A DNA stretch of 64,000 nt from Gemmatimonadota bacterium (GTDB lineage Bacteria; Gemmatimonadota; Gemmatimonadetes; JACCXV01; JAHWKZ01), in the NCBI GenBank assembly GCA_035708865.1, contig DASTFF010000001.1, positions 4,333-68,332 of the forward strand. Reading direction: 5' to 3'. The translations under genes and the position numbers were made by a program. The notes beneath the pieces are model-generated. The model was not told the DNA's origin and made no database searches. It worked only from the letters and a program-made list of their open reading frames with translations. This document shows, in pieces, positions 21,040-44,543 of the stretch (positions are counted from its first letter, which is position 1; each line of letters begins with the position of its first letter).

Positions 21040-21115
<76 letters not shown>

Positions 21116-21168: not shown

Positions 21169-21244
<76 letters not shown>

Positions 21245-29316: not shown

Positions 29317-29403
29317 GCCGGGGTGGCGGAACTGGTAGACGCGCGGGACTTAAAATCCTGTGGGCGAGAGCCCGTGCGGGTTCGACCCCCGCCCCCGGCA
29401 CCA
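29317..29403 (+). tRNA. tRNA-Leu (anticodon TAA), class II with long variable arm
   Basis: 87 nt: gccgggg..GGTAGACGC..cuUAAaa..long variable arm..ttcgacc..ccccggc-a-CCA. Confidence 0.85.
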
Positions 29404-39619: not shown

Positions 39620-39913
39620 TCACTCGAGATCGAAGTCCTCGAGGCTGAACAGTCCCTCGGAACGCTCGACGATCCGCTTGATCCTTCCCTCCGAGACCTC
39701 GAGGCGTCTCCGCACCGCGACCGCCAGCTCGACGCCTTCCTCGAACAGGGCGATCGACTCGTCCAGCGAGACCGCCTCGCTCTCCAGCTTCTGGACGATG
39801 GCCTCGAGCCGGCGGAGCTGCTCCTCGACCGGCGTCGCGGCGGCGTCCGGAGCGGCCGGGACCCGGCTGCCCGGCTCGTCGCCTTCGGGCACGTCGATCG
39901 GAATCTGGGTCAT
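39620..39913 (-). CDS. xseB: Exodeoxyribonuclease VII small subunit
   Basis: 97-aa helical protein (EEQLRRLEAIVQKLESEAVSLDESIALFEEGVEL). ATG overlaps the xseA TGA. The upstream part of the track ORF is rejected. Confidence 0.8.
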   Translation of the reverse strand: MTQIPIDVPEGDEPGSRVPAAPDAAATPVEEQLRRLEAIVQKLESEAVSLDESIALFEEGVELAVAVRRRLEVSEGRIKRIVERSEGLFSLEDFDLE

Positions 39914-41289
39914 CGCTCCTCCTCGTCTTCGATACGGGTGACCCGCGCCGCCACGCTCCCGCGTGCGAAGCGGATCGCGAGATCGTCGTCCTCCGCCAGC
40001 GCCCCGGCCCGCTGGACGACATGCCCCCTGACGTCGGTGACCACCGCATAGCCCCGCTCGAGGATCGAGTACGGGCTGGCGGCCCGAAGCCGCTCTTCGA
40101 GGTGGCGGGCGCGGACGTGGACGCGCTCGTGCCTTCGGGAGAGGCCGCGGCCGAGCTCGGGGGCCCGGCCGAGCGTGCGCTCGGCGCCGGCCAGCCGGCC
40201 CGCCACCGGCGCCGACAATCCGGCCGCCGCCTCCTCCATCCGGGCGCGCTCTGCCGCCATCCGCCGGCGGACCACCGGGCCCATGTCCCCGGCGGCTTCG
40301 GCCCATCGCTGGCGCGCCTCGTGGGCGCGATCCCGGACCCGCCGGAACCCGTAGCGGCGGATCGGGGCCAGCGCCTCCTCGAGCCGCCGCAGGCGCTGCC
40401 GCTCGACCGCCCGCGCCAGACGCCGGAACTGGTGGACCACCCCGCGCGCGATCTCCCGGGTCTCAGGGACCACGTGCTCCCCGGCGGCCGAAGGGGTCGG
40501 CGCGCGCAGGTCGGCGGCGTAATCGGCGAGCGTGGTGTCGGTCTCGTGGCCGACCGCGCTCACCACCGGCACCGGGGAGTCGGCGATCGCCCGGACGACG
40601 ATCTCCTCGTTGAAGGCCCACAGATCCTCGAGCGAGCCGCCGCCTCGGCCGACGATCACCACCTCGGCCACACGGTGGCGGGCGAACCAGCGCACCGCGC
40701 GCGCGATCTCGGGCGCCGCCTCGCGTCCCTGGACGGCCACCGGCTTGAGCAGGATGCGGGTCGCCGGCGCGCGGCGCAGGACCACCGACACCATGTCGCG
40801 CAGGGCAGCCCCCTCGGCCGAGGTGACCACGCCGATCGAGACGGGCCAGAACGGCAGGCTCCGCTTCCGCGCCGGGTCGAACAGCCCCTCTTCGCCGAGC
40901 CTCCGCTTGAGCGCCTCGAACTGCAGATACAGGGCCCCCAGACCGCGCGGAACCACCTGGGTCACCTCGAGCTGGAACTGGCCCCGCGCCCGATAGATGG
41001 TCGGCCGCGCGACCACGACCACGTGCATCCCCTCCTCGAGCGGAAAGGCGAGCCGCTCGTTGTCGAGCCGGAACATCACGCAGCGCACCTCGCTGGCGCG
41101 GTCCTTGAGCGTCCAGTACATGTGGCCCGACGGGCGGTGATGATGAAAGGACGACACCTCGCCCTCCACGCCGACCGTCCCGAACTCGGCCACCAGCGCG
41201 CTGGAGGCGCGGAAGACGAGCTCGCTCACCGACATCACCACCGGCGTCTCGGCAGGAGCCGGGTGTCCGAGGCCGGCCGCGCGGTTCAT
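39910..41289 (-). CDS. xseA: Exodeoxyribonuclease VII large subunit
   Basis: OB-fold N-domain and XseA catalytic core; ATGA overlap with folD. Confidence 0.85.
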
Positions 41290-42191
41290 GACGGCCGCTC
41301 CGCCACCGTGGCGATCCCCGCGCGCGCCCGGCGGGCGGCCTTCAGCGTGTTGTCGAGCAGCATGGCGATCGTCATCGGGCCGACACCTCCCGGCACCGGG
41401 GTCAGCCAGCCGGCGACCTCGCCGACCGCGGGATCCACGTCGCCGACCAGCCGGTAGCCCCGCTCCACGGCCGGATCTTCGATCCGGTTCATGCCGACGT
41501 CGATCACCGTCGCTCCCGGCTTGACCATCTCCTTCGTGACGACGCCGGCCCGCCCCACCGCGGCCACGAGGATGTCGGCGCGGCGAACGTGGGCGGCCAG
41601 GTCCGCCGTCCGGCTGTGGCAGATGGTCACCGTGGCGTGGGCGTGGAGCAGCAGGAGCGCGGTCGGCTTCCCGACGATGTCGCTCCTGCCGATCACCACC
41701 GCCTCGGCCCCCTTCGGCTGGATGCCGGTCGCGGCGACGAGACGCATGATCCCGGCCGGCGTGGCGGGCACGAAGCCGGTCTCAAGGTCACCCGCCACCA
41801 GCCGGCCGACGTTCAGCGGGTGGAAGCCGTCGACGTCCTTGCCCGGATCGACGGCGATCAGGACCCGCCGAGTGTCGATCTGGGGCGGCAGCGGAAGCTG
41901 GACGAGGAGGCCGTGAATCGCGGGGTCGCCGTTCAGCTCCGCCACCAGCTCCAGCACCCCGGCCTCGGAGATCGAGGCCGGCCGGCGCACCGTCCGCGAC
42001 ACAAACCCCGCCTCCTCGCACGCCTTGCCCTTCATCCGCACGTAGGTGGCGGAGGCGGGGTCGTCCCCCACCAGGACCGCCGCCAGGCCGGGAACGATGC
42101 CGGTCTCCTCGCTGAGCCGCGCCGCTTCCCGGGCCACCGCCTGACGGACGTCGCGGGCTACCGCCCGGCCGTCGAGCGTGCGCGCGCTCAT
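41286..42191 (-). CDS. folD: Bifunctional methylenetetrahydrofolate dehydrogenase/cyclohydrolase
   Basis: [13 protein letters not shown] plus NAD(P)-binding [12 protein letters not shown] at 42191 overlaps the tdk TGA. The upstream part of the track ORF is rejected. Confidence 0.9.
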
Positions 42192-42802
42192 CCGCCGCCC
42201 GCCTGGCGCGGGCCGATGTCCAGGGCGAGCTCCCGCTGCCCGGGCCGCGGCTCGAAGCACTGCCGGCACCGCGCCTCGTAGGACGCCGAGCCGCCGACCA
42301 CGATCCGCTCCTCGTTGTCCACGATCCGTTGCGTGAAGTTGGCGGGGTTCCCGCAGCGAACGCAGATGGCCAGGGTCTTGGTGATGTCTTCGGCCCTGGC
42401 GAGGAGCTGCGGGAGGGGCTCGAAGGGGCGCCCCATGAAATCCAGGTCGAGCCCGGCGACGACCACGCGCTTGCCAAGGTACGCCAGCCGATCGCACACC
42501 TCGATCAGCCGCTCGTCGAAGAACTGGGCCTCGTCGACCCCGACCACCTCGGTGCGAGGGTCGAGACGCTCGAGGATCTGCGGAGCGTGAGGGACCCGCT
42601 CGGCCTCGATCCGCATCGCCGAGTGGCTGACGATCTCGTCGGCGGCGAAGCGGTCGTCGACCAGCGGCTTGAACACCTGGACCCTCTGGCGCGCGATCTC
42701 GGCCCGCCGCAGGCGCCGGATCAGCTCCTCCGACTTGCCGCTGAACATGGGGCCGCAGATCACCTCGATCCATCCCATCGAGCCACGGACGAACGGGCTC
42801 AT
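42188..42802 (-). CDS. tdk: Thymidine kinase
   Basis: P-loop [11 protein letters not shown] and C-terminal zinc ribbon (CVRCG..CRQC). Alternative start at M9. Confidence 0.85.
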
Positions 42803-42841
42803 CGGCCGGACTCCGCCCGCGCCGGTGCCGTAGTGCAGGCG

Positions 42842-43624
42842 TCAATCGTACGGCTCATCGATCCTCTCGATGGCGGTCGCCCGGCCGATGGCCGGGTCGA
42901 CCGTGATGACGACGGCCTGGAACCGGACGTCCTCCTCGGCGACTTCGAATCGGTTCGGCGTCTGCTTGAGGAAGCGCTCGATCGCGCTGCCGGCCCGGAC
43001 GCCGATCACCCCGCCGTGCGGCCCCGTCATGCCGACATCGGTGACGTAAGCCGTCCCGCGGGGCAGGATGCGGGCGTCCGCCGACGGGACGTGCGTGTGG
43101 GTGCCGACCAGGGCGCTGACCCGGCCGTCCGCATAGTGGGCGAGCGCGATCTTCTCGGCCGTCGCCTCGGCGTGAAAGTCGACCACCACCACCTCCGCGG
43201 CACCGACCTCCGGCCGATCCAGGAGGGCGTCCAGCCGCCGGAAGGGGCAGTCGAGGTCCTTCATGAACACCCGCCCTTGCAGGTTGAGGACGGCCACCTG
43301 GCGCCCGGCCCGCGTCGCTGCCCATACGCCGCGTCCGGGATTGCCGCGTGGGTAGTTGTCGGGGCGCAGGATGCGCGATTCGCGGTCGAGGGCCTCGTAG
43401 ATCTCGCGCCGGTCCCAGACGTGGTTGCCGGTGGTGACGACGTCCACGTCGTCGCCGAGGATGGAATCCAGGATCGACGGGGTGATCCCGAAGCCGCCGG
43501 CCGCGTTCTCGCCGTTGACGATCACGAGGTCGGGGGCATGCGTCGCGCGGCTCGACGCCAGGCCCCGCTTGAGGGCCCGGCGGCCCGGCCGGCCGAAAAC
43601 GTCGCCGACGAACAGAACTTTCAT
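42842..43624 (-). CDS. ymdB: YmdB-like metallophosphoesterase (TIGR00282 family)
   Basis: [35 protein letters not shown] metallophosphatase motifs. Confidence 0.8.
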
Positions 43625-43639
43625 GCGCGAGGGGGCCTC

Positions 43640-43850
43640 GGGACGGAACGAGAAAGACCCCGCCGCGACGCACCGGAGAGGATTTTTTGACGCCCTCGCT
43701 GATACAGTGGGTATCCTGCTCGCCCGATTCTCGCTTCCTCCTGGGAGGCGTGCGATCGGCAGGCGAAACGAGGATCCCTTCGAGTGCGTGTTGGCTCAAA
43801 AAATGGTCTCCCCGGATCCGCGCGAGCGGGGTCTTTCCCGCCCGTTTCGA
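43640..43850 (-). ncRNA. Candidate structured ncRNA, 6S (SsrS)-like architecture; strand assigned by synteny with zapA
   Basis: 260-nt gap between zapA and ymdB with locally lower GC. A 12-bp perfect long-range complement (gaaagaccccgc at 43652-43663 with gcggggtctttc at 43826-43837) encloses ~162 nt. A nested 8-bp complement follows (ttttttga ~43683-43690 with tcaaaaaa ~43796-43803). This gives a rod-like closing stem with internal loops and a ~105-nt central region, and lies downstream of zapA as ssrS does in E. coli. Confidence 0.35.
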
Positions 43851-43884
43851 TCGATCGGCCCTGTCGTCTCCTTTCCTCTTCGTC

Positions 43885-44241
43885 CTACTTCCTGCGGGTC
43901 TGCTTCCTGTTCCTGGCGTCAGTGGACGGCTTGGCGGCGAGGACGGCCGTCTCGGCCAGCGCCTCGTCCACGTCCGTCTCGAGCCCGCGAACCCGGGCCA
44001 CCGCGTCGGCCAGGCTGACGGCGCCGAGGCGGCGCGTCTCGAACAGGCCGTCGGTGATCTCCATCGCCCCCAAAACCGCGGTCTGGAACGGCTCGAGCGT
44101 CGGCGCCGAGCCCCGCAGCTGGCGCAAGGTGCGGTCCACGTGGGCCGCCACGTCGCGGGTGTAATCCGGGTCGGCCGCCGAGCGCAGCCGAAACGGCTCG
44201 TCCAGGACGGTGACCTTGATCGTCTTCTTGTCGTCGCTCAT
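43885..44241 (-). CDS. zapA: Cell division protein ZapA
   Basis: MSDDKKTIKVTVLDEPFRLRS..AAHVDRTLRQL ZapA fold, 118 aa. ATGA overlap with the upstream coiled-coil gene. The upstream part of the track ORF is rejected. Confidence 0.8.
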   Translation of the reverse strand: MSDDKKTIKVTVLDEPFRLRSAADPDYTRDVAAHVDRTLRQLRGSAPTLEPFQTAVLGAMEITDGLFETRRLGAVSLADAVARVRGLETDVDEALAETAVLAAKPSTDARNRKQTRRK

Positions 44242-44543
44242 GCCTCGACCACGTATCGCACGCGCGACAGCAGCTCCTTCAGCTTCGTCTCGAGGAACTC
44301 CGCATGACGGGAGATGCGCTCGTTCTCCGACTCCAGCTCGCGGACCCGCTCGTCGAGCGCCACCGGATCGAGACCGCCTTCGAGCCGCCGGCGGACGGCT
44401 TCTTCCTCCCGGCATCGCTCGGCGAGCTGACGGGTCCGCTCGACGAGCAACTTAACCTTGTCCCCCAGCGCGTCCAGCGCGACCGCCAGCTCCGCAGCGC
44501 GCTCGCGCGCCTCGTCCCGCTCCTTGGTCTCACGCGCCGTCAT
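44238..44543 (-). CDS. Small coiled-coil protein (ZapB-like / cell-division associated, uncertain)
   Basis: 101-aa all-helical heptad-rich product, translationally coupled on both sides (pheT stop and zapA start, ATGA overlaps). Confidence 0.45.
   Translation of the reverse strand: MTARETKERDEARERAAELAVALDALGDKVKLLVERTRQLAERCREEEAVRRRLEGGLDPVALDERVRELESENERISRHAEFLETKLKELLSRVRYVVEA

What the first reader, a model, noticed from the sequence alone, without database searches (positions are those of the whole stretch)
43625..43884. Structured RNA candidate (6S-like) in the zapA-ymdB gap
A 260-bp non-coding gap sits inside an otherwise overlap-packed operon, and its GC is locally lower. A perfect 12-bp long-range complement (43652-43663 with 43826-43837) encloses about 162 nt. 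An 8-bp nested complement (T6GA with TCA6) lies further in. Together they give a long interrupted closing helix with a large central region. This matches the overall architecture and size (~185 nt) of 6S RNA. ssrS lies immediately downstream of zapA in E. coli and many proteobacteria.
Basis: partly seen in the sequence, partly recalled or inferred. Interest (0 to 1): 0.6.

Follow-up and report, generated by a model that had tools for sequence, protein, structure and literature searches.

The report
6S RNA gene after zapA

Summary
The observation and the interpretation both hold. Window 43653-43835, minus strand (the strand of zapA and ymdB), matches Rfam 6S/SsrS (RF00013) end to end. It scores 56.3 bits against a gathering score of 46.4, with E = 1.6e-8 for the whole window. 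It is the only non-tRNA family hit in the window.

The RNA folds as the canonical 6S rod: closing stem, invariant internal stem (AUUUUUUGAGCC with GGCGUCAAAAAAU), a 14+14-nt central bubble and an apical stem-loop. MFE is -95.9 kcal/mol, z = -6.8.

All six related Gemmatimonadota genomes fetched carry a 6S match at the same place, directly upstream of ymdB. Three of these matches are above the gathering score and three are 0.1-5 bits below it. The RNA is more conserved than the ymdB coding DNA, conservation stops at the ends of the helix, and 7 base pairs show compensatory changes.

Acidobacteriota, Nitrospirota and Syntrophales loci carry 6S-rny-ymdB, with zapA detected upstream in most of them. 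No sigma-70-type promoter or intrinsic terminator was found in the gap. The RNA is therefore probably cut out of the pheST-zapBA-ymdB operon transcript; this is inferred.

Function is inferred by homology: sequestration of the housekeeping RNA polymerase holoenzyme, with release by pRNA synthesis. The predicted pRNA is 5'-GUUGGCUCAAAAAAUGG.

This is a new member of a known family, of low interest.

The parts
43653..43835 (-). 6S RNA (ssrS) core, 183 nt, as delimited by the Rfam RF00013 model
   Evidence: cmscan gives 56.3 bits (gathering 46.4), model 1-187 of 187, E 1.6e-8 for the window. MFE is -95.9 kcal/mol, z = -6.77.
43836..43840 (-). 5' extension of the closing stem beyond the Rfam model end; may belong to the mature RNA or to its precursor
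   Evidence: Inverted repeat I1 spans 43649-43663 / 43826-43840. The extension covaries between clades: CGGG/CUCG in the window clade and GGGC/GCCC in L003-L006, read from alignment A2.
43649..43652 (-). 3' extension of the closing stem, partner of 43837-43840
43808..43834 (-). Closing stem, 5' arm (RNA nt 2-28; two helices separated by an internal loop)
   Evidence: RNAalifold consensus of 7 Gemmatimonadota sequences. Pairs at columns 23/162, 24/161 and 2/183 show compensatory changes.
43655..43680 (-). Closing stem, 3' arm (RNA nt 156-181)
43793..43804 (-). Internal stem, 5' strand AUUUUUUGAGCC (RNA nt 32-43). Invariant in all 7 sequences. Predicted pRNA template.
   Evidence: 12 of 12 pairs never vary. 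It aligns to E. coli CCCCUGAGCC in the Rfam model.
43682..43694 (-). Internal stem, 3' strand GGCGUCAAAAAAU (RNA nt 142-154)
43779..43792 (-). 5' side of the central bubble, AACACGCACUCGAA (RNA nt 44-57). It contains the predicted pRNA start, templated by C46 at 43790.
   Evidence: The region is unpaired in the consensus structure. C46 falls at Rfam model position 45, the position of E. coli U44. That U44 is the E. coli pRNA start is from my own knowledge.
43695..43708 (-). 3' side of the central bubble, ACUGUAUCAGCGAG (RNA nt 128-141). It is the most variable segment of the RNA.
43709..43778 (-). Apical (terminal) stem with internal loops and a 4-nt terminal loop (43741-43744)
   Evidence: Compensatory changes occur at columns 63/123, 71/117, 73/115 and 84/104.
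43885..44241 (-). zapA (118 aa), immediately upstream; its stop codon lies 49 nt before the 6S 5' end
   Evidence: Pfam PF05164 ZapA, E 5.4e-11, 43.1 bits (cut-off 23.8)
42842..43624 (-). ymdB-family metallophosphoesterase (260 aa), immediately downstream; its start codon lies 28 nt after the 6S 3' end
   Evidence: Pfam PF13277 YmdB, E 8.9e-102. TIGR00282, 271 bits (cut-off 254).
44238..44543 (-). 101-aa coiled-coil protein in the position of zapB; overlaps the pheT stop and the zapA start by 4 nt each
   Evidence: ORF. Only a sub-threshold ZapB match: PF06005 E 0.04 here, and E 1.1e-5 for the protein at the same position in L008.

Best explanation
The gap encodes the 6S RNA (ssrS) of a Gemmatimonadota bacterium. 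The gene is on the minus strand, in the same direction as the surrounding operon: pheS-pheT-(zapB-like)-zapA-ssrS-ymdB-tdk-folD-xseA.

The RNA is about 183-192 nt long. It folds into a long, interrupted double-stranded rod with a 14+14-nt central bubble, a shape that imitates the melted DNA of an open promoter.

By homology with E. coli and B. subtilis 6S (inferred, not shown here), it binds the housekeeping sigma-A/sigma-70 RNA polymerase holoenzyme in its active-site cleft. It thereby damps housekeeping transcription when growth slows.

On nutrient upshift the polymerase uses the 5' side of the bubble and the adjoining internal-stem strand as a template for a short product RNA. The predicted product is 5'-GUUGGCUCAAAAAAUGG..., starting opposite C46 (window 43790). 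The pRNA unzips the invariant U6GAGCC/GGC-UCA6 stem. The freed 3' strand then re-pairs with the rest of the bubble, and the polymerase is released.

No sigma-70-type promoter or intrinsic terminator was found in the gap. The RNA is therefore most likely excised by ribonucleases from a polycistronic transcript that also carries zapA and ymdB, as E. coli 6S is excised from ssrS-fau transcripts (inferred).
For: Shown here:
- A full-length RF00013 hit above the gathering score, on the minus strand only.
- Canonical 6S architecture in the single-sequence fold and in the 7-sequence consensus fold.
- The 6S signature motifs around the bubble align to the model and to E. coli 6S: UGAGCC...GGGA on the 5' side and ACCCA...GG(C)GUCAA on the 3' side.
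- A 6S match directly upstream of ymdB in all six Gemmatimonadota loci L001-L006. The scores are 41.2-53.6 bits; L001, L002 and L003 are above the gathering score, and L004, L005 and L006 are 0.1-5 bits below it.
- RNA identity to the window is 77-95%, against 66-85% for ymdB DNA and 36-89% for the flanking spacers. Conservation starts and stops at the helix ends.
- 99.2% of cells are paired. Seven pairs carry changes on both sides, against 0-1 in the slid controls. The covariation score is 0.145 against 0.03-0.05.
- G-U pairs occur at several columns, which fit only the minus-strand reading.
- There is one copy in the window. The antisense strand scores 60 bits against 200 bits with the clade model.
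- No promoter-like or terminator-like site lies in 43300-44500.
- With the predicted pRNA template masked, the rest of the 5' bubble pairs with the freed 3' strand in 6 of 7 sequences. One pair switches G-C to A-U between clades, with L002 as the exception (alignment A1).

From the literature:
- ssrS follows zapA in E. coli (RefSeq annotation) and in beta/gamma-proteobacteria, and is processed from a dicistronic ssrS-fau transcript (PMC7641849).
- The RNAP-binding and pRNA-release mechanism is described in PMC10406553 and PMC8414754.
Against: - There are no expression data. The 5' and 3' ends, abundance, RNA polymerase binding and pRNA synthesis are all untested.
- The Rfam score is only about 10 bits above threshold, and three relatives (L004-L006) fall 0.1-5 bits below it.
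- The single-sequence MFE structure partly closes the central bubble. The open-bubble fold costs only 2.4 kcal/mol more.
- Covariation rests on 7 sequences in two clades, so it reflects few independent events. The internal stem never varies and so says nothing about pairing.
- The promoter scan covers only a sigma-70 consensus. A divergent Gemmatimonadota promoter inside zapA or in the 49-nt spacer cannot be excluded.
Confidence: 0.93

Rival explanations
1. The gap is an ordinary intergenic regulatory region. The long inverted repeat would be a terminator for zapA plus a promoter or leader for ymdB, not a stable RNA gene.
For: The gap lies between two genes of one strand, and any long hairpin could attenuate read-through. 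The single-sequence MFE fold is an almost continuous hairpin.
Against: - No terminator-like site (no T-run after a GC hairpin) and no sigma-70-like promoter was found.
- The element matches the 6S model over all 187 positions.
- The conserved block is exactly the 6S helix, while the true spacers next to zapA and ymdB diverge.
- In other phyla the same RNA is followed by rny, not ymdB, so it is not a ymdB leader.
Confidence: 0.03
2. It is a 6S-derived relic or a structured processing signal. It would be recognised by an endoribonuclease to separate the zapA and ymdB mRNAs, and would no longer act on RNA polymerase.
For: The Rfam score is modest (56 bits; 41-54 in relatives). The position inside a polycistronic operon means it must be processed in any case. 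The downstream genes in related phyla are RNase Y and its partner YmdB.
Against: The features needed for polymerase mimicry are the ones most strictly conserved: the bubble, the invariant template strand and the motifs flanking the bubble. A mere cleavage hairpin would not need a 14+14-nt bubble or 6S motifs. E. coli 6S is itself processed from longer transcripts (PMC7641849), so processing and 6S function are not alternatives.
Confidence: 0.03
3. It is a mobile or repetitive palindromic element (REP/MITE-like) that happened to insert after zapA.
For: It has long, imperfect terminal inverted repeats and a locally lower GC.
Against: The clade model finds only this one copy in 64 kb. The element sits at the same syntenic place in genomes whose YmdB is only 63-65% identical. 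Its substitutions are compensatory.
Confidence: 0.01

Closest known systems
Escherichia coli 6S RNA (ssrS, b2911; Rfam RF00013)
   Same: Both belong to the same Rfam family, and the sizes match (183 nt in both). Both have the closing stem / internal stem / central bubble / apical stem layout. Both share the UGAGCC and GGGA motifs on the 5' side and ACCCA...UCAA on the 3' side. Both lie immediately downstream of zapA on the same strand and are followed by a co-oriented protein gene. The predicted pRNA shares the GGCUCA core with the E. coli pRNA (AUCGGCUCAGGGG...; the E. coli sequence is from my own knowledge).
   Different: Sequence similarity is low: the window scores 56 bits against 140 for E. 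coli. The internal stem is U6/A6-rich instead of C4/G4-rich. The downstream gene is ymdB, followed by tdk and folD, not fau. No sigma-70 promoter is recognisable upstream, whereas E. coli has two (PMC7641849 and its reference 96).
6S RNAs of Acidobacteriota, Nitrospirota and Syntrophales found here (L008, L009, L014, L015, L025, L027, L029, L056, L066, L119, L136)
   Same: They belong to the same family (58-96 bits) and share the UUGAGCCAACAC motif at the start of the bubble. They lie in the same neighbourhood upstream of ymdB. zapA was detected upstream of 6S in seven of the eleven (L008, L009, L014, L015, L027, L029, L119), and a ZapB-like gene in some of those.
   Different: In those phyla rny (RNase Y) lies between 6S and ymdB; in Gemmatimonadota, and in L007, it does not. 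Their 3' bubble carries a clear hairpin (for example CCUGGUUUUGCCAGG) that the Gemmatimonadota RNA lacks. The Gemmatimonadota clade model detects only one of them, weakly (L014, 24.7 bits).
Bacillus subtilis 6S-1 RNA (bsrA)
   Same: Both belong to the same family and have the same rod-with-bubble architecture. Release depends on a pRNA-induced rearrangement in which the central bubble collapses into a new helix (Beckmann et al. 2012, cited in PMC8414754 and PMC10406553). An analogous collapse helix is predicted here. As I recall it, the 6S-1 pRNA starts GUUCGGUCAAAA..., close to the GUUGGCUCAAAAAA predicted here.
   Different: The genomic context differs: in lactic acid bacteria 6S is flanked by rarA and a universal stress protein gene (named uspA in the abstract; written upsA in the methods) (PMC8414754), and B. 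subtilis 6S-1 is not next to zapA. B. subtilis has two paralogues; only one copy is seen in this window.

Membership tests
6S / SsrS RNA (Rfam RF00013) | Covariance-model score at or above the curated gathering score, over the whole model | tested here: met
   56.3 bits against 46.4; model positions 1-187 of 187; E 1.6e-8 for the 64-kb window; minus strand only.
6S / SsrS RNA (Rfam RF00013) | Length about 160-200 nt, forming one extended rod: closing stem, large central bubble, apical stem-loop (PMC8414754) | tested here: met
   183 nt, or about 192 nt with the stem extension. The consensus fold of 7 sequences gives the closing stem, the internal stem, a 14+14-nt bubble and the apical stem. 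In the single-sequence fold the open bubble costs only 2.4 kcal/mol.
6S / SsrS RNA (Rfam RF00013) | Conserved sequence motifs bordering the central bubble | tested here: met
   UGAGCC, GGGA, ACCCA and G(C)GUCAA align to the model consensus and to E. coli 6S. They are invariant in the 7 Gemmatimonadota sequences.
6S / SsrS RNA (Rfam RF00013) | Secondary structure maintained by compensatory substitutions in relatives | tested here: met
   99.2% of cells are paired. Seven pairs carry changes on both sides, against 0-1 when partners are slid. Only 5 of 500 shuffles reach 7 such pairs. The basis is small: 7 sequences in two clades.
6S / SsrS RNA (Rfam RF00013) | Orthologue present at the same locus in related genomes | tested here: met
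   A 6S match lies directly upstream of ymdB in L001-L006, at 41.2-53.6 bits; L001-L003 are above the gathering score and L004-L006 are 0.1-5 bits below it. The RNA is more conserved than the neighbouring coding DNA.
6S / SsrS RNA (Rfam RF00013) | Accumulates as a discrete, abundant, stable transcript | not testable with these tools
   No transcriptome data are available for this organism.
6S / SsrS RNA (Rfam RF00013) | Binds the housekeeping sigma-factor RNA polymerase holoenzyme | not testable with these tools
   Inferred by homology only (PMC10406553).
6S / SsrS RNA (Rfam RF00013) | Serves as template for short product RNAs initiated in the 5' side of the bubble | not testable with these tools
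   The start is predicted at C46 (window 43790) from its alignment to E. coli U44 at model position 45. The predicted pRNA is GUUGGCUCAAAAAAUGG, with GG at positions 4/5 as in other Gram-negative pRNAs (PMC8414754). The conserved A 3' of the start is present in 4 of 7 sequences and is G in the other 3.
zapB-zapA-ssrS gene array (described for beta/gamma-proteobacteria, PMC7641849) | ssrS immediately downstream of zapA on the same strand, with zapA preceded by zapB | tested here: inconclusive
   zapA is confirmed (PF05164, 43.1 bits) with ssrS 49 nt downstream. The upstream 101-aa coiled-coil protein matches ZapB only below threshold: E 0.04 and 14.8 bits, against a cut-off of 31.5.

The most novel reading that the evidence does not exclude
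The (zapB-like)-zapA-ssrS array may not be a proteobacterial peculiarity. It may instead be an ancient module, pheST-zapBA-ssrS-(rny)-ymdB, shared by Gemmatimonadota, Acidobacteriota, Nitrospirota and Desulfobacterota. In this reading 6S is made as part of a cell-division/translation operon transcript. It is matured by the ribonuclease encoded right behind it (RNase Y, with its partner YmdB). Gemmatimonadota have lost rny from this position and so must mature 6S differently. That would link 6S biogenesis mechanistically to RNase Y/YmdB and to cell-division gene expression.
Probability: 0.25. Interest if true: 0.35.

Novelty: new member of a known kind. Interest (0 to 1): 0.15.

Why it matters
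It matters little beyond correct annotation. The result places a 6S RNA in an uncultured Gemmatimonadota genome; I found no paper in the searchable library that mentions 6S RNA together with that phylum. It also gives a clade-specific alignment and model, which detect relatives that the general Rfam model scores near or below threshold. The side observation is mildly useful for tracing 6S evolution and for finding divergent ssrS genes by synteny: zapA-ssrS adjacency, and ssrS-(rny)-ymdB adjacency, extend across several non-proteobacterial phyla. It also suggests, but does not show, a link between 6S maturation and RNase Y/YmdB.

Tried and rejected
- Terminator plus promoter reading. The consensus scan of 43300-44500 found 0 sites of each kind. 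Rejected.
- Other RNA families. A permissive cmscan (E up to 1) of 43400-44100 on both strands returned only 6S.
- Plus-strand RNA. There is no Rfam hit on the plus strand. The clade model scores 60 bits antisense against 200 bits sense. G-U pairs fit only the minus strand. Rejected.
- Repetitive element. The clade model finds one copy in the window. Rejected.
- More Gemmatimonadota sequences. The YmdB-based metagenome scan returned only loci at 50-58% protein identity to the window YmdB. That is the band of the non-Gemmatimonadota genome hits, so it added nothing to the covariation set.
- A broad model. The Gemmatimonadota model R1 was too specific. It picked up only L014 outside the clade.
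- A 12-sequence cross-phylum MAFFT/RNAalifold alignment. It was too poorly aligned to give a full consensus structure.
- Key papers. Wehner 2014, Barrick 2005 and Wassarman 2018 are not held in the library. Whether they already list Gemmatimonadota 6S or this synteny could not be checked.
- Rfam 'gathering' mode. Its fast filters missed the L001 and L003 hits, which 'evalue' mode found at 53.6 and 51.4 bits.

Full report
**The observation**

It reported lower GC, a perfect 12-bp long-range complement and a nested T6GA/TCA6 complement. All of this is in the sequence.
- On the minus strand, a YmdB-family metallophosphoesterase (PF13277, E 8.9e-102; TIGR00282) starts at 43624. ZapA (PF05164, 43.1 bits) stops at 43885.
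- The genes around them run on the minus strand: pheS, pheT, a 101-aa coiled-coil protein, zapA, ymdB, thymidine kinase, folD and xseA. Most of them abut or overlap by a few bases, so the gap does stand out.
- The inverted-repeat search returns arms 43649-43663 / 43826-43840 (15 nt, 93%, 162 nt apart). It also returns arms 43675-43690 / 43796-43811 (16 nt, 88%), which contain the T6GA/TCA6 pair.
- GC is 0.62 for the element against 0.71 for ymdB and for the window.

**What it is**

A scan of the whole window against Rfam 15 gives four hits at gathering level. Three are tRNAs. The fourth is 6S/SsrS RNA (RF00013) at 43653-43835 on the minus strand. It scores 56.3 bits against a gathering score of 46.4, covers model positions 1-187 of 187, and has E 1.6e-8. 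A permissive scan of 43400-44100 on both strands, with E up to 1, returns only this hit.

The 183-nt RNA folds at -95.9 kcal/mol. Dinucleotide shuffles average -66.8 +/- 4.3 (z = -6.77). The alignment to the model shows the motifs that border the central bubble of 6S RNAs. UGAGCC and GGGA lie on the 5' side, and ACCCA and GGCGUCAA on the 3' side. The same model columns are occupied by E. coli ssrS.

**Relatives**

The YmdB protein places the window in Gemmatimonadota. The best genome hit is 92% identical, a Gemmatimonadota MAG, and five more Gemmatimonadota/Gemmatimonadales loci are 63-77% identical.

All six carry a 6S match immediately upstream of ymdB, 25-44 nt before the start codon.
- Scores are 41.2-53.6 bits. 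L001, L002 and L003 are above the gathering score. L005 is 0.1 bits below it, L004 1.9 bits and L006 5.2 bits.
- The seven RNAs have 88% mean column identity.
- Against the window, the RNA is 77-95% identical. ymdB DNA is 66-85% identical and the spacers on either side 36-89%.
- In the flank alignment, conservation begins at AAAGACCCCGC and ends at GCGGGGUCUUU, which are the two ends of the closing helix.

**Structure and covariation**

RNAalifold on the seven sequences gives the textbook 6S layout:
- a closing stem in two helices;
- a 12-bp internal stem, AUUUUUUGAGCC with GGCGUCAAAAAAU;
- a central bubble of 14 nt on each side;
- an apical stem with internal loops and a 4-nt loop.

Counting pairs on that structure gives 99.2% of cells paired. 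Seven pairs carry changes on both sides, against 0-1 when the 3' partners are slid by 1-3 columns. The covariation score is 0.145 against 0.03-0.05 in the slid controls. No shuffle of 500 reaches the observed score or paired fraction.

The basis is small: seven sequences in two clades. The internal stem never varies, so it is uninformative about pairing, but it fits a sequence-level constraint such as a template role.

The closing helix also continues at least 4 bp beyond the Rfam model ends, with compensatory differences between clades: CGGG/CUCG against GGGC/GCCC. The mature RNA or its precursor may therefore span about 43649-43840.

**Strand and copy number**

Three results fix the strand as minus, the strand of the operon:
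- Rfam hits only the minus strand.
- Several conserved G-U pairs would be A-C mismatches on the other strand.
- A clade model built from the seven sequences scores the sense strand at 200 bits and the antisense strand at 60 bits.

The same search finds no second copy in the window.

**How it most likely works**

This section is inferred by homology; nothing here tests function. 6S RNA mimics an open promoter. It occupies the housekeeping RNA polymerase holoenzyme. It is released when the polymerase transcribes a short product RNA from the 5' side of the bubble into the adjacent stem, which refolds the RNA (PMC10406553, PMC8414754).

- In the Rfam alignment, the E. coli residue U44 falls at model position 45. 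That U44 is the E. coli pRNA start is from my own knowledge. The window residue in that column is C46, at coordinate 43790.
- The predicted pRNA is therefore 5'-GUUGGCUCAAAAAAUGG. It is identical to the plus strand from 43790, and it has GG at positions 4/5, as reported for Gram-negative pRNAs (PMC8414754).
- With the template nucleotides masked, the remainder of the 5' bubble pairs with the freed 3' strand in six of seven sequences (ACGC.CUCG with CGAG.GCGU in the window). One pair changes G-C to A-U between clades; L002 is the exception. This resembles the bubble-collapse rearrangement described for B. subtilis 6S-1.

**Biogenesis**

This section is also inferred. The scan of 43300-44500 finds no sigma-70-type promoter and no intrinsic terminator. 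The 49-nt spacer upstream and the 28-nt spacer downstream are not conserved between clades.

The simplest reading is co-transcription with zapA and ymdB, followed by nucleolytic excision. This is analogous to the processing of E. coli 6S from ssrS-fau transcripts (PMC7641849). A non-consensus promoter cannot be excluded.

**Comparison with what is known**

RefSeq annotates zapA-ssrS-fau in E. coli K-12, with ssrS 41 nt after zapA. ZapB-ZapA-SsrS is described as conserved in beta- and gamma-proteobacteria (PMC7641849).

The same order is seen here in Gemmatimonadota. One caveat applies: the small coiled-coil protein upstream of zapA matches ZapB only below threshold (E 0.04).

Among the non-Gemmatimonadota loci fetched, 6S-rny-ymdB occurs in several groups:
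- Acidobacteriota/Terriglobia: L008, L009, L014, L015, L029.
- Nitrospirota: L025, L056.
- Syntrophales: L027.
- Three further contigs: L066, L119, L136.

tblastn detected zapA upstream of 6S in seven of these: L008, L009, L014, L015, L027, L029 and L119. The Acidobacteria locus L007 has zapA-6S-ymdB without rny, like the Gemmatimonadota loci.

In Gemmatimonadota rny is missing from this position, and no rny homologue lies in the 64-kb window.

I found no paper in the searchable library that mentions 6S RNA together with Gemmatimonad*. The main surveys of 6S distribution are not held, so prior description cannot be ruled out.

**Verdict**

This is a 6S RNA gene, a new member of a well-known family, and routine Rfam-based annotation would find it. 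Interest is low. The only mildly new points are the cross-phylum extent of the zapA-ssrS-(rny)-ymdB neighbourhood and the clade-specific features: the U6/A6 internal stem and the absence of a 3'-bubble hairpin.

Noticed in passing
L003:2554-2877 (6S at L003:2772-2956): In this Gemmatimonadales MAG the ZapA reading frame lacks the C-terminal coiled-coil part seen in the window. It runs about 105 nt into the 6S gene before reaching a stop. L004-L006 have a normal stop about 45 nt upstream of 6S. It could be a real deletion or an assembly artefact.
   Followed up: partly
L008:1424-2980 and the equivalent positions in L009, L014, L015, L025, L027, L029, L056, L066, L119, L136; absent at window 43625-43652: RNase Y (rny) lies between 6S and ymdB in Acidobacteriota, Nitrospirota and Syntrophales loci. 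It is absent from that position in all seven Gemmatimonadota loci and in the Acidobacteria locus L007. No rny homologue is detectable anywhere in the 64-kb window by tblastn.
   Followed up: partly
window 44238-44543 (-): A 101-aa coiled-coil protein sits between pheT and zapA, overlapping both by 4 nt. It reaches only a sub-threshold match to ZapB (PF06005, E 0.04). The protein at the same position in L008 scores E 1.1e-5, also below the Pfam cut-off. It may be a divergent ZapB.
   Followed up: partly
window 39910-43624 (-): Downstream of 6S the operon continues with ymdB, thymidine kinase, folD and xseA. L003 has ORFs of matching sizes after ymdB; they were not identified by family search. 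A folate-pathway enzyme in the same transcription unit as 6S parallels E. coli ssrS-fau (5-formyl-THF cyclo-ligase).
   Followed up: no
L001:2790-2972, L003:2772-2956: Rfam 'gathering' mode with its fast filters did not report these two 6S genes. The 'evalue' mode scored them at 53.6 and 51.4 bits, above the 46.4-bit gathering score. High-GC 6S genes can therefore be lost to the filters.
   Followed up: yes
L011:2684-3001: In this Acidobacteriota MAG zapA abuts ymdB with only about 56 nt between them. No 6S match was found in the locus, so 6S must be elsewhere or lost.
   Followed up: no
L027:5562-5997, L039:5494-6771, L119:5062-5771: A 16S rRNA gene starts about 1.8-1.9 kb downstream of the end of ymdB in three loci. 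Two are named Syntrophales and Geopsychrobacteraceae; the third is an unnamed metagenome contig.
   Followed up: no
window 21040-21112, 21170-21241, 29317-29400 (+): Three tRNA genes. The third is 84 nt long with a long variable arm.
   Followed up: no
L155:2402-2470: A sub-threshold match to the Bradyrhizobiaceae sRNA BjrC68 (33.1 bits, gathering 39) lies just upstream of ymdB in a soil metagenome contig. It is probably chance.
   Followed up: no
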